Assembly (NCBI GenBank): GCA_964016885.1
Contig: OZ024744.1
Coordinates: forward strand, 43,586,001 to 43,650,000
Direction of reading: 5' to 3'
Origin: Eledone cirrhosa
Lineage: Eukaryota
Length of the DNA: 64,000 nucleotides
Position numbers and translations under genes: made by a program. Below the pieces are notes generated by a model. It was not told where the DNA came from, did not search any database, and was given only the letters and a program-made list of their open reading frames with translations. Of the stretch, positions 1 through 64,000 are shown piece after piece (the stretch's first letter is position 1; each line of letters begins with the position of its first letter).

Positions 1-57
1 ACTGTCCCAGTCTTTTGTATTGTTCCCTATATGTCGACCCTTGTGGCTAATAAAGGA
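1..57 (+). mobile_element. 3' terminus of a Tx1-like element (family B), cut by the window edge
   Basis: tcccagtcttttgtattg..cccttgtggctaataaaggaa matches the family B 3' ends at ~15140-15198 and ~60520-60577; followed by an ATT tract. Confidence 0.85.
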
Positions 58-70
58 AATAATAATAATA

Positions 71-119
<49 letters not shown>
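58..119 (+). repeat. (AAT)4 then (ATT)n microsatellite spacer
   Basis: Directly visible. Confidence 0.98.
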
Positions 120-327
120 GCGACCTACGTACTAAATCGTATCATCGTGAGCTCCGCAAGGTTTGTTGTTTCCGTTTGTGAAAATTTGCCGTTTATGGAA
201 ATTTTTTATTGTAAACTATATATAAGTGCACATACATTGTTTTCCGAAAAGGACACCCAAAAAGATTGGGGCTTTGTGCCCAAAATTTAAACTTTTATGA
301 TTATCAAAAAATTTCTTTGAAAAAATC

Positions 328-2251
328 ATGGCTGATTCACCTCTGCACCAAACAGCTGAGAGCCTTCCTCACAAACTAACACCTCACACTTGTAAATATT
401 ACTACGTTTTCCAACACTAAAAATTTAAGCAGTAGCAATATTTTAAATTTGTCTTAGGCAGACATTCATTCCCCGCCATTACCAATGACTGCAGGTGTAA
501 AAGCCGCCACTACTACCACCACCGCGACAACAGAAACAGAATAAAAAAATAAATTAACTCGTGATGTCGAAATGAATTCAATCAAAATGAACTCTTCCAC
601 ACCGAACACCACTGACGCCACCACCACCACAACTGAAACTAAAATTAATAATAACAAAAATAACGATAACAACAACAGCAACAATGACATTAAGAAAACC
701 ACCCTGATTTTTTCCAGAGTAGCAAAACAGTGCGAAGCATTTCAGGTAACTCAGGAGGAATTAGAAGATGCCAAAAAGATGGTAAAGAAAGATGGGTACA
801 GGGTCAGCCTCACCCCCACCTAATAAAATGGACCATCGGCGCCTATGCACCGTGCCTTATCGAACAATTAATGTAAAATCGCGCCGAGTGGAACGGGCAT
901 CCGAGTCCCAAATCCAAAAATCTTTGGGACATGTGTGGGCAAGAAAATCCCACATCAGACGTGGGCAGAAATATGGAACCGTGGACGTGTTCTTTGAAAC
1001 ACCAGAGGAGGCTAGAGAACACTCCATGGCCCCATTAAGAAGTGACGAATTCACACTCGTCCCAAGCTATTGTGGCCAGAGAATCGTAAAGATCAGGGTG
1101 ACCCACGTTCCACCGGCCATCGAAATTCCCTGGCTAATAACTGCCGTCCTCGCCAGCATCGAAGCCAACACCAAGATTATAGCAACAGCGAAAGAAAAGC
1201 AAGAGAACTGGTCTAGACCTGGGATGGAGCTCCTGATCCAAACGGACCAAAAAAGCATTGAGGTGATCCCAGAGGAAATAGACCTCACTGACGGCAGCCA
1301 CCTCACCGTATTCGTCGGGGGCAGAAGGCCTAGGTGTGTCGTTTGTGGTGAAGGAACCCACCTAAGGGCTTTTTGCCCTCAGGCTAAAAGGTTGAGGCCA
1401 CCTCTCCTACCCACACCAGTGACTCAACCATCAACACCACCAGCAGCAGAGATGACAGCAACAACTGTAGCAGCAACAACAGAAGCAACTATAACAGCAA
1501 CAACCCCAGCAACAGTAGCAAAACCAACACCACCACCACCCAACGCTTCAGAACTAGCACCAGCGCCTACACCATCCACCACGCCACAACCAAAACTAAC
1601 GCCTGTGGAGGATTCTCCACTCCCCGGCCTATCACAACTGGAGACAAATTGTGACGACGAGGAGTGGGAAACGGTATCAGGAAAAAAGAAAATAAGAAAC
1701 CAAATAAGAAAAAATTCTCTTCCTTCCCCCTCCAAAAACAAAATACAGAGGGAAACAAATAAACTATCAAACAAAAAGGTTAGGACAGACATGCCACATC
1801 CACACCAGCATCACCAAGCCCATCACCCCAAACACCAACACCATCACCATCATTAACCCCATCACCACCATCACCTACACCACAGAATTCACGAAAATGC
1901 GAAACAGAAACAAACCCACAACAAACGCAAACAAAACAAAACAACCAAAACGATACACACTACACAGCATTAAATTTGAAGACCAACCAATTATTACACT
2001 ACATCCAACACAACACCAGCATCACAGAAAAAGACTACACAACAACCCAAAAATTCACACCACCTGCACACATACAAATCACTCGCATCACACAGAAAAC
2101 GTACACGACACTAAAACAAAAATTCCCCAAAGACATCGGAGACTTCCGACAAGCACTCTCCAGGAGGATTTATAAGGACATCCTTCCTGAGGAGGCCACA
2201 AGCAGTGAAAAGGATGGAGAAACCGTACTTCCTCTACGAGAAGTAAGGTAA
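328..2251 (+). pseudogene. Family A ORF1 (Thr/Asn-rich N-terminus, RRM-like region, CX2CX4HX4C zinc knuckle, Pro/Thr linker, C-terminal domain), disrupted
   Basis: ORF pieces 572-823, 792-1856, 1976-2251; GTVDVFFETPEEA; CVVCGEGTHLRAFC; in-frame stop and frameshifts relative to other A copies. Confidence 0.88.
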
Positions 2252-2285
2252 GTGGTCTTTTCCATCTTTTCCACTCCATTTCAAC
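2247..2285 (+). promoter_or_regulatory. Inter-ORF signal: GGTAAGT over the ORF1 stop, then a ~30 nt pyrimidine tract before the ORF2 ATG (also at the other eight ORF1/ORF2 junctions)
   Basis: Same arrangement at ~8536, 11696, ~16915 (GGTAGGT), ~22177, ~33959, ~38250 (AGTAAGT), 46456, ~56839, ~62812; function inferred only. Confidence 0.55.
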
Positions 2286-5200
2286 ATGACCTCATTCAGA
2301 ATAGGCAGCATAAATGCGAGTGGCTTGGAATCGACAGGGAAGCAAGGCCACCTGCTCAACGACCTCAGGTCACTAAACATAGATGTAGTGGCCATCAGCG
2401 AGACCAGAATCTCCGAAGCATGGGCCTTCGCACCGATCTTCGGCGGCTACGATGTGTACGGATCTCCCAGCCGTCCGGGATCGGGGGAGGAGTTGCTGTG
2501 CTTTTTCGGAGAGGTTTTGATCTTGCAATACGGGCCATCTTCCTGGACCCAGAAGGTAAGTTGGTTGTGCGTGACGTGACCAGCGAAGTCGGGCAAGCTT
2601 TCAGGGAGTGGCCGTCTATGCCCTGACAGGAGCAGGGCGGCCTGATTTCTTATGGCGTCTGGAGACCTTTCTTGGAACGTCCCGTTCTTTAGTGTTAATG
2701 GGCGACTGGAACGGGATCTTAGATGCACGCTGGGACTGTGTGGGATTAGTGGATAGGGGAGGAGGGTGCAAGAGTCTCACCAACCTGCCAGACGTTTTGA
2801 ACTGTCTAACAGGTACCGATTGGATTTCCCGAATGTGCCAATGTGGACTTGAACAAATCGCATAGGGTCAGCCAGATCATACCTAGATAGAGTATTTTGT
2901 AGGGAAATAGATAGGTCTAGCATAGGCTGTCCACAATTCAAGATAGTCAGCTACACGGAACACAAATTCGTGATCTGTGTGCTTGGCGTAGATAGGCTTC
3001 ATAGACGAGGACCCGGCTACTGGAAGCTAAACGCGTCCTTACCAGCGCGCAAGGCCTACAGAGACCGGATTAGCGAACTAGTTAAGCGGGCGTTGACGGG
3101 GGCCATCGTCAACAACAAGTGGTGGTTTGCTCTTAAAAGAGCGATTAGAATAGAATCCATTAGGTTTAGTAAGGCTTTAGCAATAGAGAAAAATAGAGCA
3201 GAGGGAGAATTAGTTAGAAAATTAGACGAAGCGCTTAGCAAAGGCATCGCGTCCGACGTACTTGCGGCGAAATTGGCCCTTGACCAATTCTTCAATGCAA
3301 AGCACGAAGGCTGCGTTTTCAGAGCTAGGGTGCGTGCTCTCAGACACGAGGGGACGAAAGGCGTTCAATGGGCCCGACTGGCGGAGGCGCGTCGTGGCAA
3401 CAAAGCCACGATCCGGTCTTTGGTGGACCACGACGGACGCATGCTACTCGATCCCGGGAAAATGAGTGAAGCTTTTCAGCGACAGTTCGCACAGCTGTTC
3501 GGGGGCAGCGGCGGGCCGGCTCGAGGAATGGACTTTAGTGTCTACCTCGACGGACTGCCGCGGCTCTCGGCCACTGAGGCGGAGTGTTGCGAAATGCCGA
3601 TAAGAGCCGCTGAATTACGGGAGGCAATGACTGGCTGCACAAGGTGTAAACCGCCTGTTTTGGGTGGTCTGCCCTATGAACTTTACGTACAAATGCCAGA
3701 CTTGTTCGGAGGCCTCTTGGCGGACGTCTACTGCAACTGGCAACAGAACGGGAGAATTCCCAGCTCTGTGAGCCCAGGAGCTGTGGCGCTGCTGAGAAAG
3801 GATCCGAACAAGGGGGATAATATAGATAATTTCAGGCCCATAACTCTGCTAAACACAGAGTTCAAGATTTTGGCCAAGGTGCTTGCAAAGAGGTTGGCGC
3901 TTGTCGTTGGTGTTCTGGTGGGAGAGGCGCAGACATGCGCCATTCCCGACAGATCAAAACGACAACCTCCACCTCATGCGATACATCGTAGAGAGGGTAG
4001 CTAGGGAACCTGGCACGGGTGGGTCCTTGATCAATTTAGATCAGTCGAAAGCATTCGATAGGGTCGACCATCGTTACCTAGCGGCAGTCCTGAGGGTGGC
4101 TGGCTTTGGGCCCGTCTTCAGAGGCTGTATCGCTGCCATGCACAGCGACATCTGCTCTGTGGTTAGAGTGAACGGTCACCTTTCGGAACTGTTCAACATC
4201 ATGCGCTTGGTCCGCCAAGGATGTCCCCTCTCGTCCCTCTTGTACGTGTTAACTCTCGAGCCATTACTGCACAAACTGGAGACAGTTGAGGGGGATCCCG
4301 CGCGAACTAGGGTGCGGAAGATCCGTGTCAGCATATGCGGACGATGCCACCGTAGTGTTGTCGAACGCCAAACACATCCAGGCGATCGACACTACACTTA
4401 GAGAATAAGAAGCGGTGACAGGAGCAATGATCAACCAGGAAAAGTCAGTGGGCCTGCAGCTCGGCACCTGGAGAGGCAGGTCCATGCCGTCCAACAGCGT
4501 CGTCGGGCACTGGACGGACGGACCGGTTAAATTGCTAGGGGTCTGTTTCGGTCAGGATCTCCAGACGGACAAAAACTGGGACGAGGTGACGAGCAGGATG
4601 ACTTCTCTCACCCAGAAATGGGCGGAGAGGAAGCTATCCCTGAAAGGTCGAGCGGAGGTGGCTAACGCGTACATCGCGTCTGTCATCTGCTACCGCCTGA
4701 CCGTCGTGCCTTGTCCTAAGCCCCGCCTGACTGCGCTGGAGCGTTTGCTCTTTTGCTTTTTTTGTGGAAAGGACGCGCTCCGATGATCAGGAAGTCCATC
4801 TGCTGTCAACACCCGCTACGTGGAGGGCTGGGCATGCCGTGGCTGATGATGAGCAGACACGCGCTCAGGCTACGACATCTCCAACTCTTCCTCGAAGGGT
4901 ATCAGGTGTGGTCGCCGTTTGCTAGACACGTCTTTCCCCAGCTCGTCTCCTTGACGGAGCTGCAGTCCAGGGTTAAGCGAAGACCGAGAGGGAGCGCTTC
5001 GCAGACTGGAATGTCTTCAGGCGCTCACAGCCCTCGACCAATCGGGCAATGTGATCGGTGGAAACTCCACCTTGGCGTTCTATAGGGATTAGTGGAGGGG
5101 AAGAGCGACGACGTACTTGGAGAAACTCTAGGCGTCGACGAAAAACCAACTAGCCAATCTCTTCGGAAGGACTTTCGGGCCGAGGCCTATGGACAACTTC

Positions 5201-5704
5201 CAGAAATCCCTGGCCTGGCAGTGCTACCGAGGAGCTTTGCCAGTTCGGGATAAACTCTACAGGCATGGAGGTGCCGTTAGCCGGGCATGTCCGAGATGCG
5301 CGCTGGGCGACGAAACCGTGCTGCACGCACTCGTCCAGTGTCCGAGCATTGCTGACTTGTGGGTTTATGTCGAACACCTGCTGTCACGTGTAGGACGGAT
5401 CCAGCTATCAGCTGAGTCCATCGTGAGGATTGCCCCGCCCTCTTCCTTTAGCCGGGAAGGGCAGGCAGTTTTTATCTGTCTGGTGGCCATGGTGAAAGAG
5501 ATAGTATGGTGGACACTTTTGAAAGGGCTGAAGACGAGCACTTACCTCTTCGGTGATGCTCTGATTAACTTTTTCGAATTTCATTTAAAAAGGAAAATCA
5601 GGGTAGAGAGGGAAGTGCTCTCTTCCCAGCATTTTGTTGAAAGATGGGTGAGAGAATCAAGTATGGCCCGAATGAATGGGCCTTCTCTGAGTATGTGTCT
5701 GTAA
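2286..5704 (+). pseudogene. Family A ORF2 (APE endonuclease, reverse transcriptase, C-terminal CCHC), frameshifted
   Basis: IGSINA, VVAISET, GDWN, GPGYWKLN, FRPITLLNTEFK, LDQSKAFDRV, RQGCPLS, YADD (~4334), CPRC..ETVLHALVQC, spread over several frames. Confidence 0.95.
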
Positions 5705-5945
5705 ATTAAAGGTGGAAAACTGGGAGAGGGCACTTGCCCTGGTGGTCAGGGTCACTGTGCTCTTTTAATGGGCTTTCTCCACAAATGTCCCTCGGAAGTC
5801 TCCCCCCTATTGGGGAATTTTTATTTGTTATTTTATTACATCCTCTGTTTTTTACACGCAGAAATGCCCATTTGTACCGTCCTGTATTGTCCTGTCTTGT
5901 CCTTAATGTCTACTTTATGTAAACCCTTGTGGTTAATAAAGAAAA

Positions 5946-5946
<1 letters not shown>

Positions 5947-6010
<64 letters not shown>
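5947..6010 (+). repeat. (ATT)n spacer shared tail-to-tail by a Tx1-like (+) and an R4-like (-) copy
   Basis: Directly visible. Confidence 0.98.
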
Positions 6011-6011
<1 letters not shown>

Positions 6012-6012
6012 A

Positions 6013-6264
6013 GTTGCTTTTATCTTGCCTTATGTTCATACGAGTTATCACCAAGTCACAACTAGTGACCTCAAGAGACAACAAGGTCCGCCATGTTCAA
6101 GAAAGAACATACATACTCACACATGCATATTTAGTGTTTAGACTTGTGATGTACTTATATTGACAGAATCTTCCTTAGTATATGGGCAGTTCCCATTAGT
6201 ACTATCTTTTGTATTTCTCCTATACGCGGGTTTCCTGGGAATTGCGATAAGTAATCATTAGACC
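6013..6264 (-). mobile_element. 5'-truncated 3' end of R4/Dong-like family Y
   Basis: Near-identical to 51064-51312 (3' UTR plus last codons of the family Y ORF). Confidence 0.92.

Positions 6265-6329
<65 letters not shown>
6265..6329 (+). repeat. (ATT)n spacer
   Basis: Directly visible. Confidence 0.98.
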
Positions 6330-9274
6330 GGCGACCTACGTAGTAAATCGTATCATCGTGAGCTCCGCAAAGGTTTGTAATTTCCGTTTGTTAAAAATTG
6401 CCATTTATGGAACATTTTTATTGTTAACTATATATAAGCGCACATACATTGTTTTCCGAAAAGGACACCCAAAAAGATTGGGGCCTTGTGCCCAAAATTT
6501 AAACTTTTATGATTATCAAAAAATTTCTTTGAAAAAAAAATGACTAATTCACCTCTGCACCAAGCAGCTGAAAGCCTTCCTCTCAAATTAACACCCCACA
6601 CCGACACCACCATTGTAAATGTTACTACGTTTGCCAACACTAAAAAAAATATAAGCAGTAGCAATATTTTAAATTTGTCTCAAGCAGACATTCATTTCCC
6701 GCCATTACCAATGACTGCAGGTGTTAAAGCCTCCACCACCACCACCACCACCACCGCGACAACCCCCACCCCCACCACCACCGCGACAACAGAAACAAAA
6801 GGAAAAAATAAATCAACTCGTGATGTCGAAATAATTTCAACCAAAATGGACTCTTCCACTTCCACACCGAACACCACTGACGTCACCACCACCACAACTG
6901 AAACTAAAATTAATAATAACAAAAATAACGATAACAACAACAGCAACAATGACATTAAAAAAACCACCCTGAGTTTTGCCAGAGTAGCAAAACAGTGCGA
7001 AGCATTTACGGTAACTCAGGAGGAATTAGAAAATGCCAAAAAAATGGTAAAGAAAGATGGGTACAGAGTCAGCCCCCACCTAATAAAATGGAGCATCGGC
7101 GCCTAAGCACCGTGTCGTATAGAACAATTAATGTAAAATCGCGCCGAGTGGAACGGGCATCCGAGTCCCAAATCCAAAAAGCTTTGGAACATGTGTGGGC
7201 AAGAAAAACCCACATCAGACGTGGACAGAAGTATGGAACCGTGGACGTGTTCTTTGAAACACCAGAGGAGGCTAGAGAACACTCCATGGCCCCATTAAGA
7301 AGTGACGACTTCACACTCGTCCCAAGCTATTGTTGTCAGAGACTCGTAAAGATGAAGGTGACCCACGTTCCACCAGCCATCGAAAATCCCTGGCTAATAG
7401 CGGCCGTCCTCGCCGGCATCGAAGCCAACACACACATAATAGCAATAGCAAAAGAAAAGCAGGAGAACTGGTCCGGATCTGGGATGGAGCTCCTGATCCA
7501 AGCGGACCAAAAAAGCATTGAGGAGATCGATCCCAGAAGTAATAGACCTCACTGACGGCAGCCACCTCACCGTAATTGTCGAGGGCAGAAGGCCTAGGTG
7601 TGTCGTTTGTGGTGAAGGAACCCACCTAAGGGCTTTCTGCCCTCAGGCTAAAAGGTTGAGGCCACCTTTCCTACCCACCCCAGTGACACAACCATCAACA
7701 CCACCAGTAGCAGAGATGGCAGCAACAACTGTAGCAGCAACAACAGAAGTAACTATAACAGCAACAACCCCAGCAACAGTAGCAAAACCAACAACACCAC
7801 CACCACCAGCAAAACCAAAACCACCACCACACAACGCTTCAGAACTAGCACCAGCGCCTACACCATCCACCACGCCACAACCAAAACTAACGGCTGTGGA
7901 GGATTCTCCACTCCCCGGCCTATCACAACTGGAGATAAATTGTGACGACGAGGAGTGGGAAACGGTATCAGGAAAAAAAAAACAAACCAAAAAAGAAAAA
8001 AATTCTCTTCCTTCCCCCTCCAAAAAAAAAATACAGAGGGAAACTAATAGATTAAAAAACAAAAACGTTAGGACAGATAGGCCACCATCCACACCAGCAT
8101 CACCAACCCCATCACCCCAAACACCAACACCATCACCATCATTAACCCCAACACCACCATCACCTACACCGTAAAAGTTACCAAAATGCGAAACAGAAAC
8201 AAACCCACAACAAACGCAAACAAAACAAAATAACCAAAACGATACACACTACACAGCATTAAATTTGAACAACAAGCAATTATTACACTACATCCAACAC
8301 AACACCAGCATCACAGAAAAAGACTACACAACAACCCAAACATTCACACCACCTCCACACATACAAATCACTCGCATCACACAGAAAACGTACACGACAC
8401 TAAAACAAAAATTCCCCAAAGACATCGGAGACTTCCGACAAACACTCTCCAGGAGGATTTATAAGGACATCCTTCCTGAGGAGGCCACAAGCAGTGAAAC
8501 GGATGGGAAAACCGTCCTTCCTCTACGAGAAGTAAGGTAAGTGGTCTTTTCCATCTTTTCCACTCCTTTTCAACATGACCTCACTCAGAATAGGCAGCAT
8601 AAATGCGCGTAGATTGGGGTCGTCATGGAAGCAAGGCCACCTGCTCAACGACCTCAGGTCACTAAACATACATGTAGTGGCCATCAGCGAGACCAGAATC
8701 TCCGAAGCACGGGCCTTCGCACCGATCTTAGGCGGCTACGATGTGTACGGATCTCCCAGCCGATCGGGATCGGGGGGAGGAGTTGCTGGACCCAGAAGGT
8801 AAGTTGGTGGTGCTGGACGTGACCAGCGGAGACGGGCAAGCTTTCATGTTAGTGGCCGTCTATGCCCCGACAGGAGCAGGGCGGCCTGAATTCTTCCGGC
8901 GTCTGGAGACCTTTCTTGGAACGTCCCGCTCTTTAGTGTTAGTGGGCGACTGGAACGGGATCTTAGATGCACGCTGGGATTGTGTGGGATTAGTGGATAG
9001 GGAGGAGGGTGCAAGAGTCTCACCAACCAGCTCAGGCGTTTTGAACTGTCTGACACTTGCCCTGGTGGTCAGGGTCACTGTGGTCTTTTAATGGGCTTTC
9101 TCCACAAATGTCCCTCGGAAGTCTCCCCCCCCCCTTTCGGGTAATTTTTCTTTGTTATTTTATTACATCCTCTGTTTTTTTACACGCAGAAATGCCCATT
9201 TGTACCGTCCTGTATTGTCCTGTACTGTCCTTAATGTCTACTTTATGTAAACCCTTGTGGTTAATAAAGAAAAC
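6330..9274 (+). mobile_element. Family A Tx1-like copy with most of ORF2 deleted (ORF1 6540-8540, APE stub 8575-9055, 3' UTR)
   Basis: Colinear with 120-2810, then jumps at ctgtctgaca|cttgccctgg (~9056) to the 3' UTR; ends AATAAA-GAAAAC-(ATT)n. Confidence 0.93.
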
Positions 9275-9302
9275 ATTATTATTATTATTATTATTATTAT
9301 TA
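9275..9302 (+). repeat. (ATT)n spacer
   Basis: Directly visible. Confidence 0.97.
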
Positions 9303-9604
9303 AAAATTGAGAGAGGGCGCTTGCCCTGGTGGTCAGGGTGGCCGTGGTCTTTTGTGTGGTTTCGCCACGTGTATCCCTCGGAGGTTTCCCCCCTATTGTG
9401 AATTTTTCCGTGTTTCAATTTTCATTTTTATTGTTTATATGTTTTTATTGTTTATATGTTTCTATGTCTTTTTTTGCTTTTTCGTTTTTTATATAAATAA
9501 TAAAAATCTTACACGTACAAAACCCACATCGTTCCGTCCTGTACCGTCCTGTGCCGTCTGTAATGTTTTTCTTGATGTCAGCCCTTGTGGCCAATAAAGA
9601 AACC
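9303..9604 (+). mobile_element. 5'-truncated family C copy (3' UTR only)
   Basis: Matches 49927-50200; ends ccaataaagaaacc plus ATT tract 9605-9625. Confidence 0.9.
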
Positions 9605-50252: not shown

Positions 50253-51039
50253 CTCTTTGAGTCTCAGTCATTGATGTTAGTTAACTGGAAAGTTTGTTGA
50301 AATTAATATCAAGCCACTACCTGCAGCCTCAGATATTCAGGACGTATCGGAGGTTTCTTGCTGTTCCCAGCAAGCATGCCTTTTGAAGCGTTCCAAAAAG
50401 CGTGAAGGGGCCAATTTTCTTTAACCGTCCCTGGAAACTTTTTGAGATAGTCCCTAGTGCGCCTATGACAATCGGGATCACTTTGACTTCATGGCAGTTC
50501 CAAATCCTTTTTACCTCCCACTTTAAGTCCTGGTATCGGTTAATTTTCTCCCTCTCCTTCTCTTGCACTCTCGTATCGAATGGGCAGGCCACATCCACAA
50601 TCAGGCACGATCTTTTTTCTTTGTCCAAAACCACCAGGTCAGGTCTATTGTGTTCCAGTTTCTTGTCCGTCTGTATCCTAAAATCCCACAGCACCTTCAC
50701 CTGATCGTTTTCTATCAGCGCCTCTGTCTTATGCTCATACCACTTCTCAGAATGTGGTAAATTGTTTAGTTTGCATAGGTGCCAGTGGATCACCCTGCCC
50801 ATCATGTCTCGAGCCCTTATAGTGAGTCTGGGCTAGGTGTTTACACTCGGATACAATGTGAGCCACAGTCTCCTCTCTCTCTCTCCACAGATCCTGCACA
50901 GTGGGCTAGCCTCCTCCTTGTAAATGTGGTGTTTCAACCACTTCGTTTTGAGGGCCTGCTCCTGCGCAGCCATTAACATTCCTTCTGTAGCCTTTTTAAG
51001 GTCTCCTCTTTTCAACCAGTTCCATGTCTGTGGATCTCT
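50253..51039 (-). mobile_element. 5'-truncated family X copy (CCHC plus RLE domain and 3' UTR)
   Basis: ORF 50329-50805 with RPDLVV..VDVACPFD..KINRY; ATT tract 51040-51063 at its 5' junction. Confidence 0.93.
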
Positions 51040-54000: not shown

Positions 54001-56014
54001 GAGTGGTGACTTTAGCCGATGCATAATAGAGATGATTTAAATCAGTAATGTTTAGTTTGTTTGTGATGATAATGTTTTTGATAATTATGTGAGTCTTGTG
54101 TATTATCTTTTGGTTCTGTTTGGAGTTCTGGATCTTAGGGAGGGTGTCTCGTTGCCCCATGTCAGATTCTTTCATTTTCATCCATTCGATCATAATTTCA
54201 TCCTTCAAGTTGGCAATTTCATTCTCATTCATTTCTTTATCATTTACGATCTCATTATTTTCATTTGGAGTTTCATCCTGAGCATGCACTCCCTCCACTT
54301 TTTCGATCCTTTCTTTAATTTGTTCTGTTGCCAGTGATTCCGCCCCAACCCTGGGATTCGAAGTGTTACAGTTTACCTCGTTTTCACTGACACATGTTTC
54401 ATTTTCCCTTCGCTGATTTTGTGCTAATAGCTTGATCTGATCAATTTCTATATCAGTTAGTAACTTTTTTCTTACAATATTTCTTCGTATATTGGCTAGT
54501 TTGTTACTGTCAATATAGCCTCTGTTTTCGGGATGTTTCTTTTTCCAGTTGATATATGTCAGTTCTGTATTCGATGTATTTGATGGGTAGTACATGGCAG
54601 TGTAGAAAGCCTCAAGGACTTCTTTATTATCTTCCCTTGACCATTTTTCTCTCTTTTTCTTTGGATTTCTTGGTGGTGAGCATGGAGGGCCAACAGTAGG
54701 AGTATTCCGGTTATGGGAGGTCTCCAGCTCCGAAGTGATGGGAAGGTTTGAACCATTAGCTGATTTTTTGACCCCAGTCTGGTTCCTCTCTGAGCGACGC
54801 GGCCCTTTTTTTACCCGGGTGACGGCCGATCCGGTATGAGATTTTATCATTAGACATTTACTTTATTTTGTCGCGTTTTATCCTTATCCGCCAAGGGGTA
54901 ATCATTTCGTGTTACCACTTCTAGAACGAGTGTCAACCAAGACTAGAGGGGTTTTCTCCCCTAGAGACACGGATATTCCCTGCCGGCCGCCATCCCGGTA
55001 TTTCTTGGTCACGGGGTTTTCTTTTTGTTTTTTTTTTTAAATTTTTATTATCATGAATGGTTCCTTAATGTGAGCATTGCGTGGCTTAAGAATGAAATTA
55101 TTAATAACTGTCTCCACTCCAGGCACAAGGCCAGCAATCACCCAGTGCATTACAATAATATAATATACTTTTGTTGTAGTTGGCTGTTATTGTTGTTGGC
55201 TATGTCGGTGGTGGTGCCGGGGCTTTTTATATTGTTGGTGAGGAAGGGGTGAGCCAGCAGTCCCATAGTTGTTGATGTTGACGTTTGGCCGGTGGCCAGG
55301 TCACTAAGTCAATCTATTTATATCTTTTGCTAGCCTCTCCCTTGTCTAGTGATACCGCCACCTTCCCCTTTCTCTCTCAAGTTAACAGGGGAATAGTGGT
55401 GGTAGCAATGAAGGAGTGGTGGCGGCGGCGATGGGATAGTGGTAGCAGTGATGGATGGGGTGGGGTGGTGGCAGCGGTGGCGTTGTGGTTACTGATATGT
55501 AGTATCTATGAGTTTGTGTTGGTATGTTTAATATATATTTTTATTATATATTGTGTTGACATATTCCCGTAAAATTGGAATTAAACATTATGTTAAAATT
55601 TGAGACAATAATAATAGTAATTATTATTATGATGCTGGGATTGATGGTGGTGGTGGTGAAATTGCCGTTATCTGGCTGTTATATTTAGTGTGATGGGATA
55701 GGTGGTGTATCAAGTTTCTGGTGTTGGTGAAATTGCTGTTATTTGGCTGTTCTATATAGTGTAGACAGAGGGTGTTTTCTTCCATTTATAACCATTATCT
55801 TTTTTTGAATACAAAATATATAATACAAAATTGAATATTTGAGCGATACAACAATATAATATGGATCCGAAACTTTATGGGACCTCATTCGGTGGTTTAT
55901 GCAACATTTGTACTAAGAATTGTTATTTCACAATTGATTTAAATATGTTAAAAATCAAAAACTTACGGGAGCGATTTCATGACCTTCTACCACCTCGTGC
56001 GTCTTCTTCCCTTC
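51064..56014 (-). mobile_element. Near-complete R4/Dong-like element, family Y, with a ~1.15 kb 5' leader
   Basis: Complete RT and RLE on the minus strand; leader homologous to that of family X; ATT tracts at both ends. Confidence 0.9.
51203..54850 (-). pseudogene. Family Y polyprotein (N-terminal domain, RT, CCHC, RLE) with few lesions
   Basis: Pieces 53111-54850, 52740-53114, 51892-52752, 51203-51829: [65 protein letters not shown]. Confidence 0.95.
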
Positions 56015-56025
56015 TTATTATTCCC

Positions 56026-56113
<88 letters not shown>

Positions 56114-56123
56114 AATTATTATT
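56015..56123 (+). repeat. Longest (ATT)n spacer in the window
   Basis: Directly visible. Confidence 0.98.
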
Positions 56124-56572
56124 CTTTGATTCTCAGTCATTGATGTTAACTGGAAAGTTTGTTGAAATTAATATCAAGCCACTACCTGCAACCTTAGATA
56201 TTCAGGACGTATCGGAGGGTTCTTGCTTTTCCCAGCAAGCATGCCTTTTGAAGCGTTCCAAAAAGCGTGAAGGGGCCAATTTTCTTTAACCATCCCTGGA
56301 AACTCTTTGAGATAGTACCTAGTGAGCCTATGACAATCGGGAGCACTTTGACTTTATGGCAGTTCCAAATCCTTTTTACCTCCCACTTTAAGTCCTGGTA
56401 TCGGTTAATTTTCTCCCTCTACTTCTCTTGCACTCTCGTGTCGAATGGGCAGGCCACATCCACAATCAGACACGATCTTTTTTCTTTGTCCAAAACCACC
56501 AGGTCAGGTCTATTGTGTTCCAGTTTCTTGTCCGTCTGTATCCTAAAATCCCACAGCACCTTCACCTGATCG
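56124..56572 (-). mobile_element. Family X 3' fragment fused directly to a family B copy
   Basis: Matches 50255-50707; ends at cttcacctgatcg with no ATT tract. Confidence 0.9.
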
Positions 56573-59500
56573 CCAATAAGGAACTGATGGCCCTCGTAGC
56601 ACGAAGTGAAAATATACAAAAAGAGGGGGAAATTTTTAAATCGAGCACAATTCGCGTGCCAGAAGATTTGGTTCTGGTGCGAATGTCGCTCGACATATTC
56701 AAAGAAATACGAGACAGCTTTCCTCGGGACGTGGGAACCCCGAACGTAAAACCCACTTCCAGACTTTTAAAGGGGTTCCCAAAAGAAATCCCACTAACTA
56801 TGGATGTCGGACAACCCGACCTTCACAAGAGCCCGGAAGGTAAGTAAACCTTCCTCTCTCTCTGTTTAACCTGCCAACATGGCCGTATTAAGAGTAGGAT
56901 GTTTAAATGTTCGAGGCCTGGGATCGTCCTGGAAGCAGGGTGACATGCTCAACGACCTATAGAAATCTATAGAAATGGATGTAATTTCAGTCAGCGAGAC
57001 CAGGATTTCCGACACGCGCGCACTAGCCCCCATTTTCGACTACTATCATATCTTTGCATCTGTTAGCCGGCCGGGAATGGGAGGCGAGGTGACAGTGCTG
57101 TCTAGGAAAGGTCTGGATCTCGAGGTAAGTTCGATCTTCTGGGACCCGGACGGGAAGTTGGTGGTCCTGGACATGAACAATAATGAAGGTGGTGCTTTTA
57201 GACTGGTGGCCGTCTATGCTCCTACTGGGGCAGGACGGCCGGACTTCTTTAGACGCCTGGAAGCCTTTCTGGGTACGTCTCGCCCTTTACTGTTAGCGGG
57301 AGACTGGAACGGCATCTTAGATGCACGCTGGGACTGTGTGGGAGTATCCATAGGAGAGGGGGGTGCAAAAGCCTCAAGAACCTGATCAGCCAGTTCCAAG
57401 TGTCTGACAGATACCGACTAGATTTCCCTAATGCACCAGTGTGGATCTGGGCTAACCGCATAGGGTCATCTAGATCGTATATTGACAGGATATTCATTAG
57501 GAAAATAGATAGAAATAGTGTAAGCTGTCCACGTTTTGAAACGATCGCCTATTCAGATCACAAGTTTGTGATCTGTATGGTCGACCTAGATAAGACGCGT
57601 AGGTTAGGACCTGGTTACTGGAAGCTAAACATGTCATTTCCGGCACGTAAGGCTTACAGGGACCAGGTCAACAATTTAGTTAAGAAAAAGTTGACATGGG
57701 TAGTCGTCAACAATAGATGGTGGGGGACTCTCAACAGAGAGATAAGAGTAATGTCGATAAAGTTTAGCAAGGAAGTAGCATTAGAGAAAAATAGAAAGGA
57801 GAGGGAGTTGGTAGATAAGTTAGACGAGGCTATTGGTAGTGGTATTGCAACTGATGTGCTAGCGGCGATAATGGCATTAGACCATTTCTTCAATGCGAAA
57901 CACGAAGGTTGCATTGTCAGAGGTAAGGCGCGTGCTCTGAGAAACGAGGGAACCAAAGCTGTTCGATGGGCCCGCGTGGCAGAGGCACAGCGTGAAAATA
58001 AAACCACAATTCGGTCTTTGACGGACCGAGACGGGCACGAGCTGAGAGATTCCAAGAGGATGTGTGAGGCCTTTCGCCAACATTTTTTTCGGTTGTTCGG
58101 GGGAAGTGACGGGTCAGAGATGGTGGCGGACTTCAGTCCCTACCTCAATGGCTTGCCGCAACTCTCGACGGCTGACGCTGGTCGCTGCGAAAGGCCAATT
58201 ACTTCAGCCAATATTCAGGACGCCCTTGTCGGCTGCATGAGGCGCAAGTCACCCGGTTTGGATGGTCTGCCCTACGAGCTTTACGTAAATATGCCAGACT
58301 TGTTCTCAAATCTCCTCGAAGCCCTCTACTGCAACTGGCAGCAAAACGGGAGTATTCCCAATTCTGTGAGCCGGGGCGTAGTGACGCTGATAAGGAAAGA
58401 CGAGAATAAGAGGGACACATTAGACAATTTCAGGCCCATAACTCTGCTCAACACAGAGTTTAAGATTTTGGCCATGGTGTTAGCGAAGAGGTTGGCGCTT
58501 GTCGTCGGGGATTTGGTTGGAGAACCGCAAACTTGCGCAATCCCAACCAGGTCCATACACGACAACCTCCACCTCATGCGATACATCATAGAGAGGGTAG
58601 GGTGTAAACCTGGCTTCGGTGGGGCTCTGATCAATTTAGATCAATCGAAAGCATTCGATAGGGTCGACGATCGGTACCTGGAGGCTATCCTCAAGGCGGC
58701 TGGCTTCGGCCCCGTCTTCAGAAGCTGGATCGCTGCAATGCACAGCGGCACCTGCTCGATGGTCAAAATTAATGGCCCCCTCTCGGAACCGTTTCAGGTC
58801 TCCCGATCGGTCGTCAAGGGTGCCCTCTCTCCTCCCTTCTGTACGTATTGACACTCGAGCCTTTACTGCGGAAGCTGGAGCTGTTGCAGGGCATCCCGCT
58901 CGAACCGGGACGCGGAAACGCTGTGTCGGCTTAAGCGGACGACATCACCGTGATGGTGTCGGACACCTCAGAAATCGAGGTGGTCGGCAACTTATTGGAG
59001 GAATATGAAAGGTTGACGGGAGCAAAACTTAACCTGGAAAAGTCAGTGGGCTTGCAACTCGGCACCTGGAGAGGCAAGTCCATGCCGTCTAACAGCGTCG
59101 TTAGGCGATGGACGGACGGACCGGTAAAGTTGCTAGAGGTTTGGTTCGGGCCAAACCTCCAGATGGATAAGAATTGGGACGAGGTGACGGGCAGAGTAGT
59201 CAGTCTCACCCAGAAATGGGCTGAGATGAAGCTATCATTGAAAGGTCGGGCGGAGGTGACGAACGCGTACATCGCGTCCGTCATCTACTACCGTCTGACT
59301 GTCGTTCCTTGCCCCCGTTCGCGCCTCGCTATCTTGGAGCGGCTCCTCTTCAAATTCTTGTGGAGGGGTCAGGTTCCGCTGGTGAGGCGGTCCATGTGCG
59401 GCCAGCACCCTCTACGTGGAGGGCTGGGCATGCCGTGGCTAATGATGCGCAGGCACGCGCTGAGGCAGCGGTATCTCCAGATATTCTGCCTAAACGGTGA

Positions 59501-60577
59501 ACAGGTGTGGTCGCCGTTTGTCAGACGAGCCTTTCCGCAGCTCGTTTCTTTGACTAAGTTGCAGTCCTGGGTCAAGAAGAGACCGAGACTGGGTGACTGG
59601 CATCTGGAATGTTGCAAGGCACTCATCGCCCTCTACGAGGCGGGCAATGCGATCAGTGGAACTTCCACTCTCGAGTTCTATAGAGGATTAGTGGTGGGCA
59701 AGTGCGACGACGCACTCGGAGAGGCTCTGGGAGTCAACGAAGTCGAACTAACCAGTCTGTACCGGAGGACTTACGAGCCGGGGACGATGGATAATTTCCA
59801 AAAATCCCTCGTTGGCAGTGCTACCGGGGCGCGCTGCCGGTTCGAGATAAACTCTACAGGCATGGAAGTGCTTTCAGGAGGACCTCCCCGAGATGCGCGC
59901 AGAGCGACGAAACCGTTCTGCACGCACTCGTCCAGTGTCCGTGCATTACTGACTTGTGGAGTTATGTTGAACAGCTGTTGTCGCGTGTAGAACGGATCCG
60001 GCTATCGGCCGAGTCCATAGTGAAGATCGACCCGCCGCCTTCTTTTGGCCAGGAAGGGCAGGCAATTTTCCTCTGTCTGGTGGCAGGAGCGAAAAGGTTG
60101 TATGGTGGACGAGGTTGAAAGGATTGAACACAGACACTTTTCTCTTCGGCCAATCCCTTATCAACTTTTTCAAGTTTCACTTGGAAAGGAAGGTGAGGGT
60201 GGAGAGAGAAGTGCTGCCCCCCAGTACATTTGCTGAAAGGTGGGTGAATGTGGCGAGAATGGCCCGTGTGAGTGGGCCTACTCTGGTCATGCGGCTGTAG
60301 GTAGGTAAATTTGAATAGGAGAAGGGTGCCATTCCAGGATGCTCTCGAAGCGTCGGGTCGTTCAGGACTGGTGAGGTACCTGATCGAACCCTAGGTGGTC
60401 ATCCCCCCTATTGGGGAATTTTTTCTTGTAACTTTATTGTTACTTTATTGTTACTCTGTTATTGTTACTTTGTTATTGTTATTCATATTGTTTACTCGAT
60501 TTTTCTGTAAAACCCCACTTTCCCAGTCTTTTGTATTGTCCCCTATATGTCGGCCCTTGTGGCCAATAAATGAAATC
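56573..60577 (+). mobile_element. Family B element: ORF1 C-terminus (to 56847), ORF2 56879-60300, 3' UTR
   Basis: 483 aa and 346 aa ORF2 pieces with APE and RT motifs; YADD Tyr codon is TAA; ends ccaataaatgaaatc plus ATT tract 60578-60604. Confidence 0.93.
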
Positions 60578-60604
60578 ATTATTATTATTAATATTATTAT
60601 TATT

Positions 60605-63600
60605 GGCGGCCTACGTAGTAAATCGTATCATCGTGAGCTCCGCAAAGGTTTGTTATTTTCAGTTGTTTAAAATTGCCATTCATGGAAAATGTTTTATTGT
60701 TAACTGTATATAAGTGCACATACATTGTTATCTGAAAAGGACACCCAAAAAGATTGGGGCATTGAGCCCAAAATTTAAACTTTTATAATTATCAAACAAA
60801 AATTTTTCTTTGAAAAATCATGGATGACACAGTCCACTACTTCCTCACAAACTAACACCTCACACCGACACCACCATTGTAAATATTACTACGTTTGCCA
60901 ACACTAAAAATATAAGCAGTAGCAATATTTTAAATTTGTCTCAGGCAGACATTCATTTCCCCACATTACCAATGATTTCAGGTGTTAAAGCCGCCACCAC
61001 AACCACCACCGCTCAACCCCCGCCACCACTGCGACAACCCCCACCACCACCGCGACAACCCCCACCCCTACCACCACTGCGACAACAGAAATAAAATTAA
61101 AAAATAAATTAACTCGTGATATCGAAATGAATTCAACCAAAATGAGCTCTTCCACACCGAACACCACTGACACCACCACCACCACCACAACTGAAACTAA
61201 AATTTATAATAACAAAAATAACGATAACAACAACAGCAACAATGAAACTAAGAAAACCACCCTGAGTTTTTGCCAGAGTAGCAAAACAGTGCGAAGCATT
61301 TCAGGTAACTCAGGAGCAATTAGAAGAATCCAAAAAAATGGTAAAGAAAGATGGGTACAGCGTCAGCCTCAACCCCCCCCCACACACACACCTAATAAAA
61401 TGGAGCTTCGGCGCCTATGCACCGTGTCTTACAATTAATATAAAATCGCGCCAAGTGGAACGGGCATCCGAGTCCCAAATCCAAAAAGCTTTGGGACATG
61501 TGTGGACCAAAAAACCCCACATCAGACGTGGGCAGAAATATGGAACCGTGCACGTGTTCTTTGAAACCCCACAGGAGGCTAGATAACACTCCATGGCCCT
61601 ATTAACAAGTGACGACTTCACACTCGTCCCAAGCTATTGTGGCCAGAGACTCGTAAAGATCAGGGTCACCCACGTTCCACCGGCCAGCGAAATTCCCTGG
61701 ATAATAGCTGCCGTCCTCGCCGGCATCGAAGCCAACACCAAGATAATCGAAATAGCGAAAGAAAAGCAGGAGAACTGGTCCGGATCTGGGATGGAGCTCC
61801 TGATCCAAGCGGACCAAAAAAGCATTGAGGAGATCCCAGAGGTAATAGACCTCACTGATGGCAGCCACCTCACCGTAATTGTCGAGGGCAGAAGGCCTAG
61901 GTGTGTCGTTTGTGGTGAAGGAACCCACCTAAGGGCTTTCTTCCCTCAGACTAAAAGGTTGAGGCCACCTCTCCTACCCACCCCAGTGACTCAACTATCA
62001 AAACCACCAGCAGCAGAGATGGCAGCAACAACTGTAGCAGCAACAAGAGTAGCAACTGTAACAGCAACAACCCCAGCAACAGTAGCAAAACCAACACCAC
62101 CACCACCCAACGCGCCAGAAGTAGCACCAGGGCCTACACCATCCACCACGCCACAACCAAAACCAACGCCTGTGGAGGATTTTCCACTCCCCGGCCTATC
62201 ACAACTGGAGACAGATTGTGACGACGAGGAGTTGCAAAGGGTATCAGGAAAAAAGAAAAACGAAACCAAAAAAGAAAAAATTCTCTTCCTTCCCCCTCCA
62301 AAAACAAAATACAGAGGGAAACATAAACTATCAAACAAAAAATTTAGGACAGATATGCCACCATCCACACCAGCATCACCAACCCCATCACCACAAACAC
62401 CAACACCATCAACATCATTAACCCCAACACCACCATCACCAACACCACAAAAGTCACCAAAAAGCGAAACAGAAACAAACCCACAACAAACGCAAACAAA
62501 GCAAAACAACCAAAACGATACACACTACACAGCAATAAATTTCAACAACAACCAATTATTACACTACATCCAACACAACACCAGCATGACAGAAAAAGAC
62601 TACACAACAACCCAAAAGTTCACACCGCCTCCACACATACAAATCACTCGCATCACACAGAAAACGTACACGACACTAAAACAAAAATTCCCCAAAGACA
62701 TGGGAGGCTTCCAACAAGCACTCTCCTGGAGGATTTATAAGGACATCCTTCCTGAGGAGGCCACAAGCAGTGAAAAGGATGGACAAACCATCCTTCCTCT
62801 ACGAGAAGTAAGGTAAGTGGTCTTTCCCATCTTTTCCACTCCATTTCAACATGACCTCACTCAGAATAGGCAGCATAAATGCGCGTGGCTTGGGGTCGTC
62901 ATGGAAGCAGGGCCACCTGCTCTACGACCTCAGGTCACTAAACATAGATGTAGTGGCCATCAGCGAGACCAGAATCTCCGAAGCACGGGCCTTCGCACCG
63001 ATCTTCGGCGGCTACGATGTGTACGCATCTCCCAGCCGTCCGGGATCAGGGGGGGGGGGTGGAGTTGCTTTGCTTTTTCGGAGAGGTTTGGATCTCGCCA
63101 TACGGGTCATCTTCCTGGATCCAGAAGGTAAGTTGGTGGTGCTGGACGTGACCAGCGGAGACGGGCAAGCTTTCAGGCTAGTGGCCGTCTATGCCCCGAC
63201 AGGAGCAGGGCGGCCTGATTTCTTCTGGCGTCTGGAGACTTTTCTTGGAACGTCCCGCTCTTTAGTGTTAGTGGGCGACTGGAACGGGATCTTAGATACA
63301 CGCTGGGACTGTGTGGCATTAGCAGATAGGGGAGGAGGGTGCAAGAGCTTTAACCAACCTGCTCAGGCGTTTTGAACTGTCTGACAGGTACCGATTGGAT
63401 TTCCCGACGTGCCAATGTGAACTTGGACAAATCGCATAGGGTCATCCAGATCATATCTAGATAGAGTATTTTGTAGGGAAATAGATAGGTCTAGCATAGG
63501 CTGTCCACAATTCAAGATAGTCAGCCACACGGACCACAAATTCGTGATCTGTGTGCTAGACTTAGATAGGCTTCATAAACGAGGACCCGGCTACTGGAAG

Positions 63601-64000
63601 CTAAACGCGTCCTTGCCAGCGCGCAAGGCCTACAGAGACCGGATTAGCGAACTAGTTAAGCGAGCGTTGACGGGGGCCATCGTCAACTACAAGTGGTGGT
63701 TTGCTCAGAAAAGAGCGATTAGAATAGAGTCCATTAGATTTAGTAAGGCTTTAGCAATAGAGAAACATAGAGCAGAGGGAGAACGAGTTAGAAAATTAGA
63801 CGATACGCTTTGCAAAGGCATCGCGACCGACGTACTTGCGGCGAAATTGGCCCTTGATCAATTCTTCAATGCAAAGAACGAAGGCTGCGTTGTCAGAGCT
63901 AGAGTGCGTGCTCTCAGACACAAGGTGACGAAAGGCGTTCAATGGGCCCGAATGACGGAAGCGCGTCGTGGCAACAAAGCCACGATCCGGTCTTTGGTGG
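60605..64000 (+). mobile_element. Family A element running off the window (ORF1 60820-62816, ORF2 from 62851)
   Basis: 5' ggcggcctacgt; ORF 61593-62816 joins knuckle region, linker and C-terminal domain in one frame; APE motifs. Confidence 0.94.

What the first reader, a model, noticed from the sequence alone, without database searches (positions are those of the whole stretch)
1..64000. Two-polarity retrotransposon array built on (ATT)n: all Tx1/APE elements on +, all R4/Dong RLE elements on -
Seen: 13 Tx1-like pieces of at least 3 families all face +, and 6 R4/Dong-like pieces of 2 families all face -. Nearly every intact junction is a short tract reading (ATT)n on +, and none of these LINEs is nested inside another. 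Known: Dong (R4 clade) inserts in TAA repeats, some Tx1-group elements target other microsatellites, and TRAS/SART insert in opposite orientations into TTAGG. Inference: two unrelated endonuclease classes share one microsatellite and prime from opposite strands, and each insertion leaves target on both sides. The locus would then grow into a self-renewing head-to-tail array reminiscent of HeT-A/TART arrays. A structural role (subtelomere, centromere, small-RNA source) is possible but is not shown by the sequence.
Basis: partly seen in the sequence, partly recalled or inferred. Interest (0 to 1): 0.88.

Follow-up and report, generated by a model that had tools for sequence, protein, structure and literature searches.

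The report
Two retrotransposon clades stacking in ATT
Two unrelated kinds of jumping gene sit end to end inside short ATT repeats, each kind always facing its own way, here and at sampled sites across this animal genome; the stack likely grows because each insertion leaves landing sites for the next, and nothing found points to a structural job.

Summary
Observation confirmed: 13 L1-group (Tx1-like, APE) pieces on +, 6 RLE (R4/Dong-like) pieces on -, ATT tracts at 16 of 20 junctions, no nesting. The rule is genome-wide: 162 of 166 element ends elsewhere abut the tract, 106 face another LINE, none of 126 recognised neighbours is inverted. A second, inverted copy of the region 1.1 Mb away repeats the array order and differs by seven elements, all seven in ATT tracts and correctly oriented. 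This argues for stepwise targeted insertion and against mis-assembly or tandem duplication. The array is interstitial (43.6 Mb into a 136.5-Mb contig), copies are not enriched at contig ends, and a 20-element array is what self-seeding predicts, so a telomere-like role is unsupported. Dong/TAA, microsatellite-targeting Tx1, opposite-strand sharing (TRAS/SART) and non-nested arrays (SaTar) are published. An ATT-specific Tx1 lineage sharing Dong's target, with a sister family at (ATCT)n (26 of 30), was not found in 9 searches. The scan noted the same pattern at five other places in this genome.

The parts
1..57 (+). 3' end of Tx1-like element F (starts 5.67 kb left of the window, at the array's left edge)
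58..119 (+). (AAT)5 then (ATT)16 tract
120..5946 (+). Tx1-like family A, full length, broken ORF1 (CCHC) and ORF2 (APE-RT-zf)
5947..6010 (+). (ATT)21 tract
6011..6264 (-). R4/Dong-like family X, 254-bp 5'-truncated copy with tract on both sides
6265..6329 (+). (ATT)21 tract
6330..9274 (+). Tx1-like family A, internal deletion at 9055
9275..9302 (+). (ATT)9 tract; holds a full 6-kb Tx1-like element (family E) in the second copy of the region
9303..9604 (+). Tx1-like family B, 5'-truncated 3' end, tract on both sides
9626..15198 (+). Tx1-like family C, near full length, preceded by tract 9605-9625 and followed by tract 15199-15214
15215..20113 (+). Tx1-like family B, old (87% to best copy elsewhere), internal deletions
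20117..20277 (+). SINE with tRNA-like B box (label recalled), 3' end resembling the Tx1-like 3' end, followed by ATT tract 20277-20297
20298..24737 (+). Tx1-like family A, 3' part lost
24733..26883 (+). Tx1-like family B, 3' part, fused to the previous element at a 5-nt microhomology; 1-kb deletion absent from the second copy
26898..30950 (-). R4/Dong-like family Y, near full length, tracts at 26884-26897 and 30951-30967
30968..31684 (-). R4/Dong-like family Y, 5'-truncated, internal break at 31328; tract 31685-31752 follows
31753..36422 (+). Tx1-like family D, 3' part lost
36410..41708 (+). Tx1-like family A, 5' part lost, fused to the previous element without tract; degenerate tract 41709-41770 follows
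41771..44170 (.). non-LINE high-copy repeat(s) lying between two ATT tracts; unclassified
44221..50200 (+). Tx1-like family B, full length; tract 44171-44220 before
50201..50253 (+). ATT tract; holds a 2.2-kb 5'-truncated family X copy (on -) in the second copy of the region
50254..51039 (-). R4/Dong-like family Y, 5'-truncated, RLE region
51064..56022 (-). R4/Dong-like family X, full length, single broken ORF (RT, CCHC, PD..D..K nuclease); tract 51040-51063 at its 3' end
56023..56123 (+). (ATT)28 tract; holds a 260-bp family Z copy (on -) in the second copy of the region
56124..56571 (-). R4/Dong-like family Y, 3' end, fused head to head with the next element without tract
56572..60577 (+). 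Tx1-like family D, 5' part lost; tract 60578-60604 follows
60605..64000 (+). Tx1-like family A, continues to about +66.2 kb; one more family A copy follows and the array ends at about +72.2 kb

Best explanation
The window is part of a 78-kb stack of 20 non-LTR retrotransposon pieces of two unrelated kinds, separated by ATT tracts and fixed in opposite orientations, which likely grew by independent target-primed insertions into one microsatellite. Shown: APE elements read ATT on their sense strand at both ends, RLE elements read AAT/TAA at both ends, and the tract is present at 5'-truncation points, where it cannot be the element's own 5' end. Inferred: the Tx1-like protein would nick the (AAT)n strand and the Dong-like protein the (ATT)n strand, each priming reverse transcription from its own nick, probably helped by pairing of a short RNA tail. 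Each insertion leaves a tract on both sides, so the number of targets at the locus rises by one and occupied loci attract further copies of any family of either kind (inferred). Deletions between short homologies later fuse neighbours (seen at three junctions). The SINE is likely carried by the Tx1-like machinery but needs only about ATTAT. The array is most likely a by-product with no structural role.
For: Ends elsewhere: 162 of 166 have at least three tract units beyond the query; three more have a short tract partly inside the query, one has ATT then (CTT)n (14 of 180 loci dropped as the window itself, its second copy or duplicate/tandem copies). 5' ends: Tx1 family A 27 of 27, preceded by ATT in one phase in 47 of 47 motif matches, family E 15 of 15. 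5'-truncated copies: RLE 64 of 84, APE 10 of 27 have the tract at the break, against 0.25% background. Neighbours across the tract: 106 LINE, 20 SINE, 40 other; 0 of 126 recognised neighbours inverted. Filled/empty comparison: 7 of 7 elements present in only one of the two copies lie in ATT tracts (0.93% of the array), 2 APE on +, 5 RLE on -, each with at least 6 units on both sides. 16 of 16 window pieces with both values are closer to a copy elsewhere than to any copy in the window, from 87% to 99%. Neighbouring arrays with AAT on + have APE on - and RLE on +. Intact ORFs exist for both kinds. With 64-70% of sides facing a LINE and 20,000-40,000 copies (assumed from the 4.3% coverage), 1.5 to 14 arrays of 20 or more are expected.
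Against: 17 of 27 truncated APE copies and 20 of 84 truncated RLE copies lack the tract at the 5' break; one RLE copy has the opposite tract; later deletion or loss of upstream target is my reading, untested. The tract itself flips from AAT to ATT at some loci (L054, L160, L167, L329, L342), so polarity is local, not array-wide. Free tracts are commoner than uniform choice among tracts would give: 24 of 38 tracts of 12 nt or more, and 3 of 12 of 18 nt or more, are free of LINE and SINE, so length weighting or regional bias must be added. Copies are enriched on the four largest contigs (179 of 225, 80% against 54%), which target sequence alone does not explain. Presence in one copy could in single cases be clean loss by recombination between tracts; the window-side family A copy at +66.2 kb is only 96.5% like its best match. 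Tandem duplication does occur in other arrays. Nick strand and position were not measured.
Confidence: 0.85

Rival explanations
1. Same stacking, but orientation is set mainly by the RNA 3' tail: both nucleases would nick AT-rich DNA loosely on either strand, and only a nicked strand that pairs with the tail (AUU for the APE group, UAA for the RLE group) primes. This is a variant of the best explanation, not an alternative to targeted stacking.
For: The SINE shares the APE group's 3' end and inserts at a bare ATTAT start with 9-20-nt duplications (27 of 31 ends read AATTAT, 20 of 31 have a duplication); only 2 of 39 SINE 3' ends have three ATT units. The APE loop that aligns with the L1 target loop (role recalled) differs little between ATT and ATCT families. 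An earlier scan note words the mechanism this way.
Against: One family A copy has a single ATT unit before (CTT)8 at its 3' end and (ATT)10 at its 5' end. The invariant phase at 5' junctions (62 of 62) is not explained by 3' pairing. Reviews attribute target choice mainly to the endonuclease (PMC4494074, PMC3812793 passages).
Confidence: 0.35
2. The array is kept by selection as a structural or regulatory element (subtelomere, centromere, small-RNA source), as HeT-A/TART arrays are.
For: It is large (78 kb), carries both strands of LINE sequence, and other arrays lie within 100 kb. Enrichment on four giant contigs is unexplained.
Against: 43.6 Mb from the nearest contig end; no excess near ends and a flat spread along arms (KS p 0.28); no fixed direction relative to the chromosome; size within the tail of a neutral model; the two copies differ freely by gains and deletions.
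Confidence: 0.07
3. The chain is an assembly artefact joined at ATT repeats, or arose by local tandem duplication.
For: No long reads could be laid; the second copy may be an unpurged haplotype; tandem copies occur in other arrays.
Against: The second copy, 97.5-98.7% identical, has the same order over about 70 kb with no N; tracts are under 110 nt; window pieces are closer to distant copies than to each other; 5'-truncation points carry tracts.
Confidence: 0.03
4. Elements insert without target choice and merely survive in arrays; the ATT tracts are tails.
For: 3' tracts alone could be tails; part of the truncated APE copies lack a 5' tract.
Against: Tracts at 5' ends and truncation points, strict orientation, no nesting inside 77 kb of LINE body while 7 of 7 differences hit 0.7 kb of tract.
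Confidence: 0.02

Closest known systems
Dong (R4 clade; Bombyx Dong, DongAg, DongBg of the snail Biomphalaria), TAA-specific
   Same: Single ORF with RT and C-terminal CCHC + PD..D..K nuclease; TAA/AAT on the sense strand at both ends. Target per PMC3812793 (passages); R4-lineage placement per PMC3774820 (passages). Dong-R4 and L1-Tx1 are listed as recently active in Octopus vulgaris (PMC13282606, passages), with no target mentioned in the passages seen.
   Different: Here two divergent families plus a subfamily share the tract with APE elements in long mixed stacks; no HDV-like ribozyme was detected at the 5' ends, whereas Bombyx Dong has one. No named Dong sequence was available for a tree.
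Microsatellite-specific Tx1-clade elements: Kibi (TC)n, Koshi (TTC)n, crocodilian (TTCC)n/(TTTC)n families (PMC4494074, passages)
   Same: ORF1 with RNA-binding and CCHC features, ORF2 APE-RT-zf closest to L1 ORF2p among solved structures, only informative named homologue 'Transposon TX1 149 kDa protein'; fixed orientation in a simple repeat.
   Different: Target is (ATT)n, and (ATCT)n in a sister family, not pyrimidine-only repeats; neither target was found for Tx1 in 9 searches. The host's elements form their own clade, about 40-44% identical to the nearest database proteins.
TRAS/SART in (TTAGG)n (PMC10088271, passages)
   Same: Two element groups insert into one repeat in opposite orientations and form arrays.
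   Different: Both are R1-clade APE elements at telomeres; here an APE and an RLE clade share an interstitial microsatellite genome-wide.
SaTar arrays of guayule and rice (PMC5907723, abstract and passages)
   Same: Mixed-family, non-nested modular arrays linked by microsatellite, with deletions fusing neighbours; about 30% linked.
   Different: Those are small DNA transposons (MULEs) in (TA)n with no orientation rule mentioned in the passages searched; here 0.2-6-kb LINEs, at least 64% linked, strict orientation.
SINEU with Tx1-Mar (PMC4494074, abstract and passages)
   Same: A SINE thought to be carried by a Tx1 element, tandem insertion at a shared target.
   Different: Here the SINE has a tRNA-like head (recalled) and a much looser site (about ATTAT) than the LINE.

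Membership tests
L1 group / Tx1 clade (+ elements) | ORF2 with N-terminal APE, RT and C-terminal zinc finger | tested here: met
   Pfam Exo_endo_phos, RVT_1, zf-RVT; intact 1195-aa frame best matches L1 ORF2p, E 2e-52
L1 group / Tx1 clade (+ elements) | Separate ORF1 with CCHC knuckle and RNA-binding region | tested here: met
   CCHC motif visible; Pfam zf-CCHC only E 0.74; Atlas neighbours are CCHC and ZCCHC3-type RNA-binding proteins at 0.91-0.94
L1 group / Tx1 clade (+ elements) | RT phylogeny groups with named Tx1 rather than L1 | tested here: inconclusive
   Quick tree only; one TX1-named homologue, no L1, Kibi, Koshi or Keno sequences on hand; the host clade is not nested with the named row
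L1 group / Tx1 clade (+ elements) | Target-sequence preference (over 20% of flanks, criterion of PMC4494074) | tested here: met
   27 of 27 5' ends, 56 of 57 3' ends
R4 clade / Dong (- elements) | Single ORF, central RT, C-terminal CCHC and restriction-like nuclease, no APE | tested here: met
   Intact 1141-aa frame; best solved matches are R2 proteins, with a second weak stretch over the PD..D..K region
R4 clade / Dong (- elements) | TAA repeats flank both ends on the sense strand | tested here: met
   3' ends 57 of 57; 5' ends 22 of 25 plus 3 short; truncation points 64 of 84
R4 clade / Dong (- elements) | RT phylogeny groups with R4/Dong rather than R2, NeSL, HERO or CRE | not testable with these tools
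   No named R4 or Dong protein among homologues; the R4 label rests on recalled motifs and on the TAA target
R4 clade / Dong (- elements) | HDV-like ribozyme at the 5' end (shown for Bombyx Dong, PMC3774820) | tested here: inconclusive
   No Rfam match at E 0.5 and 0 candidates with a simple descriptor on three 5' ends; both are weak tests
Telomeric retrotransposon arrays (HeT-A/TART, TRAS/SART) | Located at chromosome ends | tested here: not met
   43.6 Mb from the nearest contig end; 4 of 225 copy positions within 2 Mb of an end, 4.2 expected
Telomeric retrotransposon arrays (HeT-A/TART, TRAS/SART) | Fixed direction relative to the chromosome end | tested here: not met
   Arrays of both polarities within 100 kb
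Microsatellite-linked modular TE arrays (SaTar type) | Mixed families, non-nested, linked by microsatellite | tested here: met
Microsatellite-linked modular TE arrays (SaTar type) | Members are MULE DNA transposons | tested here: not met
   Members are non-LTR retrotransposons
Centromere or small-RNA cluster | CENP-A binding or dense small-RNA output | not testable with these tools
   No such data held

The most novel reading that the evidence does not exclude
A self-feeding target economy shared by unrelated retrotransposons: an ATT-specific Tx1 lineage, Dong-like elements and a very abundant SINE each create or lengthen ATT landing pads for the others (4 of 4 filled sites hold 7-18 more units than the empty site), have built roughly 4% of a 3-Gb genome as thousands of polarised stacks, and have helped inflate its four giant chromosomes; within the Tx1 lineage a recent switch between (ATT)n and (ATCT)n gives a natural, intact pair for finding what sets target choice.
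Probability: 0.3. Interest if true: 0.75.

Novelty: new variant of a known kind. Interest (0 to 1): 0.52.

Why it matters
Each ingredient has a precedent, but an APE clade and an RLE clade splitting the two strands of one microsatellite across a genome was not found in print, nor were ATT or ATCT targets for Tx1-type elements. The filled/empty sites turn a static pattern into a record of growth. Intact copies of the ATT family, the ATCT family and the RLE family allow a direct test of whether nuclease or RNA tail sets target and orientation, an open point in reviews of microsatellite-targeting LINEs, and of use for site-directed insertion tools. For genome work it explains LINE hotspots without invoking function and warns that ATT markers in this genome often sit between repeats.

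Tried and rejected
Subtelomeric role: rejected. Local tandem duplication of window pieces: rejected. Whether the second copy is an allele or a paralogue: two read-laying runs (54, 96) fell on high-copy repeats and were uninformative; undecided. No RNA holder was listed, which says nothing on expression. ATT targeting by relatives in other organisms: the first metagenome scan found nothing; the second gave 49 distant loci (22-53% identity in the best segment), none with an ATT or AAT run of 12 nt or more among the runs printed; too distant and fragmentary to inform. Named R4/Dong/Tx1 references for a tree: none obtained; the careful tree did not finish and several window rows are frameshifted. 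PDB search with the RLE piece alone: no real match. HDV ribozyme: not found. In one search, 21 family Y 'truncations' at one position were an artefact of a deletion in my reference and were dropped; one search used the full family Z reference instead. In one search the library entry G began with two SINEs, so its Tx1 coverage (5.8%) is wrong; (2.3%) replaces it. Net tract gain per insertion is only suggestive, since unchanged junctions differ by up to 16 units between the two copies. SINE flanks come from the 59 regions only. The Dong paper (PMC309301) and Kojima and Fujiwara 2004 were not held; Repbase Reports are not searchable; figures and supplements of PMC4494074, which list Tx1 targets, were not seen and may bear on novelty.
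Full report
OBSERVATION. The window holds 13 pieces of APE-RT elements, all on +, and 6 pieces of RT-RLE elements, all on -. Sixteen of 20 junctions carry an (ATT)n tract read on +; one has a single ATT before a SINE; three (24737, 36410-36422, 56572) have none and join two elements at short homologies, with the missing halves nowhere beside them, so they read as deletions, not nesting. A SINE (20117-20277) and an unclassified 2.4-kb repeat (41771-44170) are also in the chain. With 100 kb fetched on each side, the array runs from -5.7 kb to +72.2 kb in window coordinates, 20 LINE pieces in 78 kb, of which 728 nt (0.93%) is ATT tract.

WHAT THE ELEMENTS ARE. An intact ORF2 of the + kind (1195-aa frame) matches human L1 ORF2p best among solved structures, E 2e-52, from the APE domain onward. 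Its ORF1 has a CCHC knuckle and resembles ZCCHC3-type RNA-binding proteins; the one informative named homologue is a 'Transposon TX1 149 kDa protein'. An intact ORF of the - kind (1141-aa frame) matches R2 proteins best and has CCHC and PD..D..K motifs at the C end. The endonuclease classes are thus shown. The labels Tx1 and R4/Dong are likely but were not confirmed on a tree with named references. The host looks like an octopod; this is recalled from the SINE and stated in earlier scan notes, not tested.

THE RULE IS GENOME-WIDE. Six searches of the 3.0-Gb genome with element ends gave 916 to 3128 candidates each and 30 loci each. After dropping 14 of 180 loci (the window, its second copy, duplicate or tandem copies), 162 of 166 ends have three or more tract units of the expected polarity beyond the query, three have a short tract partly inside the query, and one reads ATT then (CTT)n. 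Beyond the tract lie 64 RLE elements, 42 APE elements, 20 SINEs and 40 unrecognised sequences; none of the 126 recognised neighbours is inverted. These loci are the copies most like the window's, so young copies are favoured. In 59 evenly placed 10-kb regions, two fell in mixed arrays with the same rule; coverage was 2.3% APE, 2.1% RLE and 2.0% SINE, a rough figure that rests on few regions. Arrays at -100 to -58 kb, -46 to -33 kb and +156 kb have AAT on +, APE on - and RLE on +.

TARGET, NOT TAIL. A 3' tract could be a tail; a tract at the 5' end or at a truncation point cannot simply be one. Family A 5' ends follow ATT in 27 of 27 loci, in one phase in 47 of 47 motif matches, family E in 15 of 15. 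At 5'-truncation points the tract is present in 64 of 84 RLE copies and 10 of 27 APE copies, against 0.25% of background windows. The misses (20 and 17, one with the opposite tract) count against a strict rule; I read them as later deletions or loss of upstream target, untested. At a few loci the tract itself turns from AAT to ATT (L054, L160, L167, L329, L342), so the rule is local.

GROWTH SEEN IN A SECOND COPY. Hits at C28:44.75-44.81 Mb shared the window's own junctions, so 200 kb there was fetched. It is an inverted copy of about 190 kb, 97.5-98.7% identical over the array, no N, with the same order of elements. Seven elements are present in only one copy: in the second copy a full RLE (family Z) at -5.7 kb, a full APE (family E) at 9.3 kb, a 2.2-kb RLE at 50.2 kb, a 260-bp RLE at 56.1 kb and two RLE at 66.2 kb; on the window side a full APE at 66.2 kb. 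All seven lie in ATT tracts, obey the orientation rule and keep six or more units on both sides; none lies in an element body. At the four sites with an empty counterpart the two tracts together are 7-18 units longer than the single tract, but unchanged junctions vary by up to 16 units, so this is only suggestive. Other differences are two deletions inside elements and a 1.5-kb difference in the non-LINE repeat. Whether the copy is an allele or a paralogue is open, and single differences could be clean losses. Sixteen of 16 window pieces with both values are closer to a copy elsewhere among the fetched loci (87-99%) than to any other window piece, which points to independent insertions of mixed age.

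MECHANISM. Established: non-LTR elements insert by nicking one strand and priming reverse transcription from the nick (PMC10499050, start of abstract in a search listing). Inferred: for the observed orientations the APE elements must prime from the (AAT)n strand and the RLE elements from the (ATT)n strand. Each insertion turns one tract into two. If 64-70% of element sides face another LINE (64% measured), array sizes are geometric, and with 20,000-40,000 copies (assumed) 83-339 arrays of 11 or more and 1.5-14 of 20 or more are expected. This array is near the top of that range and needs no special cause. The model is incomplete: 24 of 38 tracts of 12 nt or more in the 59 regions are free (3 of 12 at 18 nt or more), so long tracts seem preferred, and 179 of 225 copy positions are on the four largest contigs (80% against 54%), only 15 on C8-C27 (7% against 26%; 16 of 241 rows dropped; positions are not independent). 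Whether nuclease or RNA tail fixes orientation is open. The SINE ends like the APE elements and makes 9-20-nt duplications starting at about ATTAT (20 of 31), mostly outside long tracts (2 of 39 with three units), which suggests a short core site and favours a role for tail pairing.

A SISTER FAMILY WITH ANOTHER TARGET. One evenly placed region held an intact element of the same clade flanked at both ends by (ATCT)n. Of 30 5' ends, 26 follow three or more ATCT units and none follows three ATT units; the 40 best copies are nearly identical, so it is very young. It falls inside the clade of the ATT families (clade support 100, its exact place 81; quick tree) and shows no excess on the large contigs (21 of 40, with tie-order bias possible).

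NO SIGN OF A STRUCTURAL ROLE. The window lies 43.6 Mb into a 136.5-Mb contig. Four of 225 positions are within 2 Mb of a contig end, 4.2 expected, and the spread along arms is flat. Centromere and small-RNA roles could not be tested.

COMPARISON WITH WHAT IS KNOWN. Dong in TAA, Kibi in TC and Koshi in TTC repeats: PMC3812793 (passages) and PMC4494074 (passages), which adds crocodilian TTCC/TTTC Tx1 families and a Tx1-carried SINE. Dong as R4 lineage with a 5' ribozyme: PMC3774820 (passages). TRAS/SART opposite orientation, and a telomere-specific Tx1 in anole: PMC10088271 (passages). Non-nested microsatellite-linked arrays of DNA transposons: PMC5907723 (abstract and passages). RLE versus APE target-specific groups: PMC4640811 (passages). 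Dong-R4 and L1-Tx1 abundant or active in cephalopods, no target named in the passages seen: PMC13282606, PMC8967140, PMC9068888. Nine searches showed no ATT- or ATCT-specific Tx1 element and no APE/RLE pair sharing a microsatellite; Repbase Reports, subscription papers and supplements were not seen. Five earlier scan notes describe the same pattern elsewhere in this genome; they are not independent support.

VERDICT. Real, well supported, and a new variant of known kinds. This window adds filled/empty evidence, genome-wide counts and the ATCT sister family. It is one large example of a common structure in this genome, not a special locus. Interest 0.52.

Noticed in passing
L211:1133-6600 (G000:C19, 13.00 Mb); L349-L378: Very young, intact Tx1-like sister family flanked by (ATCT)n instead of (ATT)n; 26 of 30 5' ends; also stacks head to tail.
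   Followed up: partly
G000:C28:44.70-44.90 Mb (L260-L279): Inverted copy of about 190 kb of the window's region, 1.1 Mb away; allele left in the assembly or segmental duplication, undecided.
   Followed up: partly
window 20117-20277: SINE about 190 bp, 39 3' ends in 590 kb, 3' end like the Tx1-like 3' end, 9-20-nt duplications starting near ATTAT; may seed new ATT tracts.
   Followed up: partly
window 41771-44170: Unclassified high-copy repeat between two ATT tracts, with (TATG)n inside; its ends abut ATT tracts at three other loci (L343, L184, L345). May be a further ATT-associated element.
   Followed up: partly
genome-wide hit positions: ATT-targeted families are enriched on the four largest contigs (80% against 54%) and scarce on the small ones (7% against 26%), unlike the ATCT family. 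Unexplained.
   Followed up: partly
L032-L034 (window -81.7 to -69.3 kb) and G000:C28:114.44-114.46 Mb: Near-identical tandem units: a 6.3-kb element+SINE unit twice, and four family X copies 4955 bp apart; arrays may also grow by local duplication.
   Followed up: no
L054, L160, L167, L329, L342; window 58-119: Head-on AAT|ATT tract switches that can flip array polarity.
   Followed up: no
L059, L092, L109, L154, L166, L329, L347: Compound ATT/(CTT)n tracts, often at the 5' end of family X or at array edges; possible tolerance of the Koshi-type TTC repeat.
   Followed up: no
5' ends of window families A-F: Related ORF2s carry unrelated 5' UTRs, all starting with G right after ATT; suggests repeated promoter replacement.
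   Followed up: no
L203, L253, L259: Three of 59 regions are long tandem repeats with frames open for thousands of codons.
   Followed up: no
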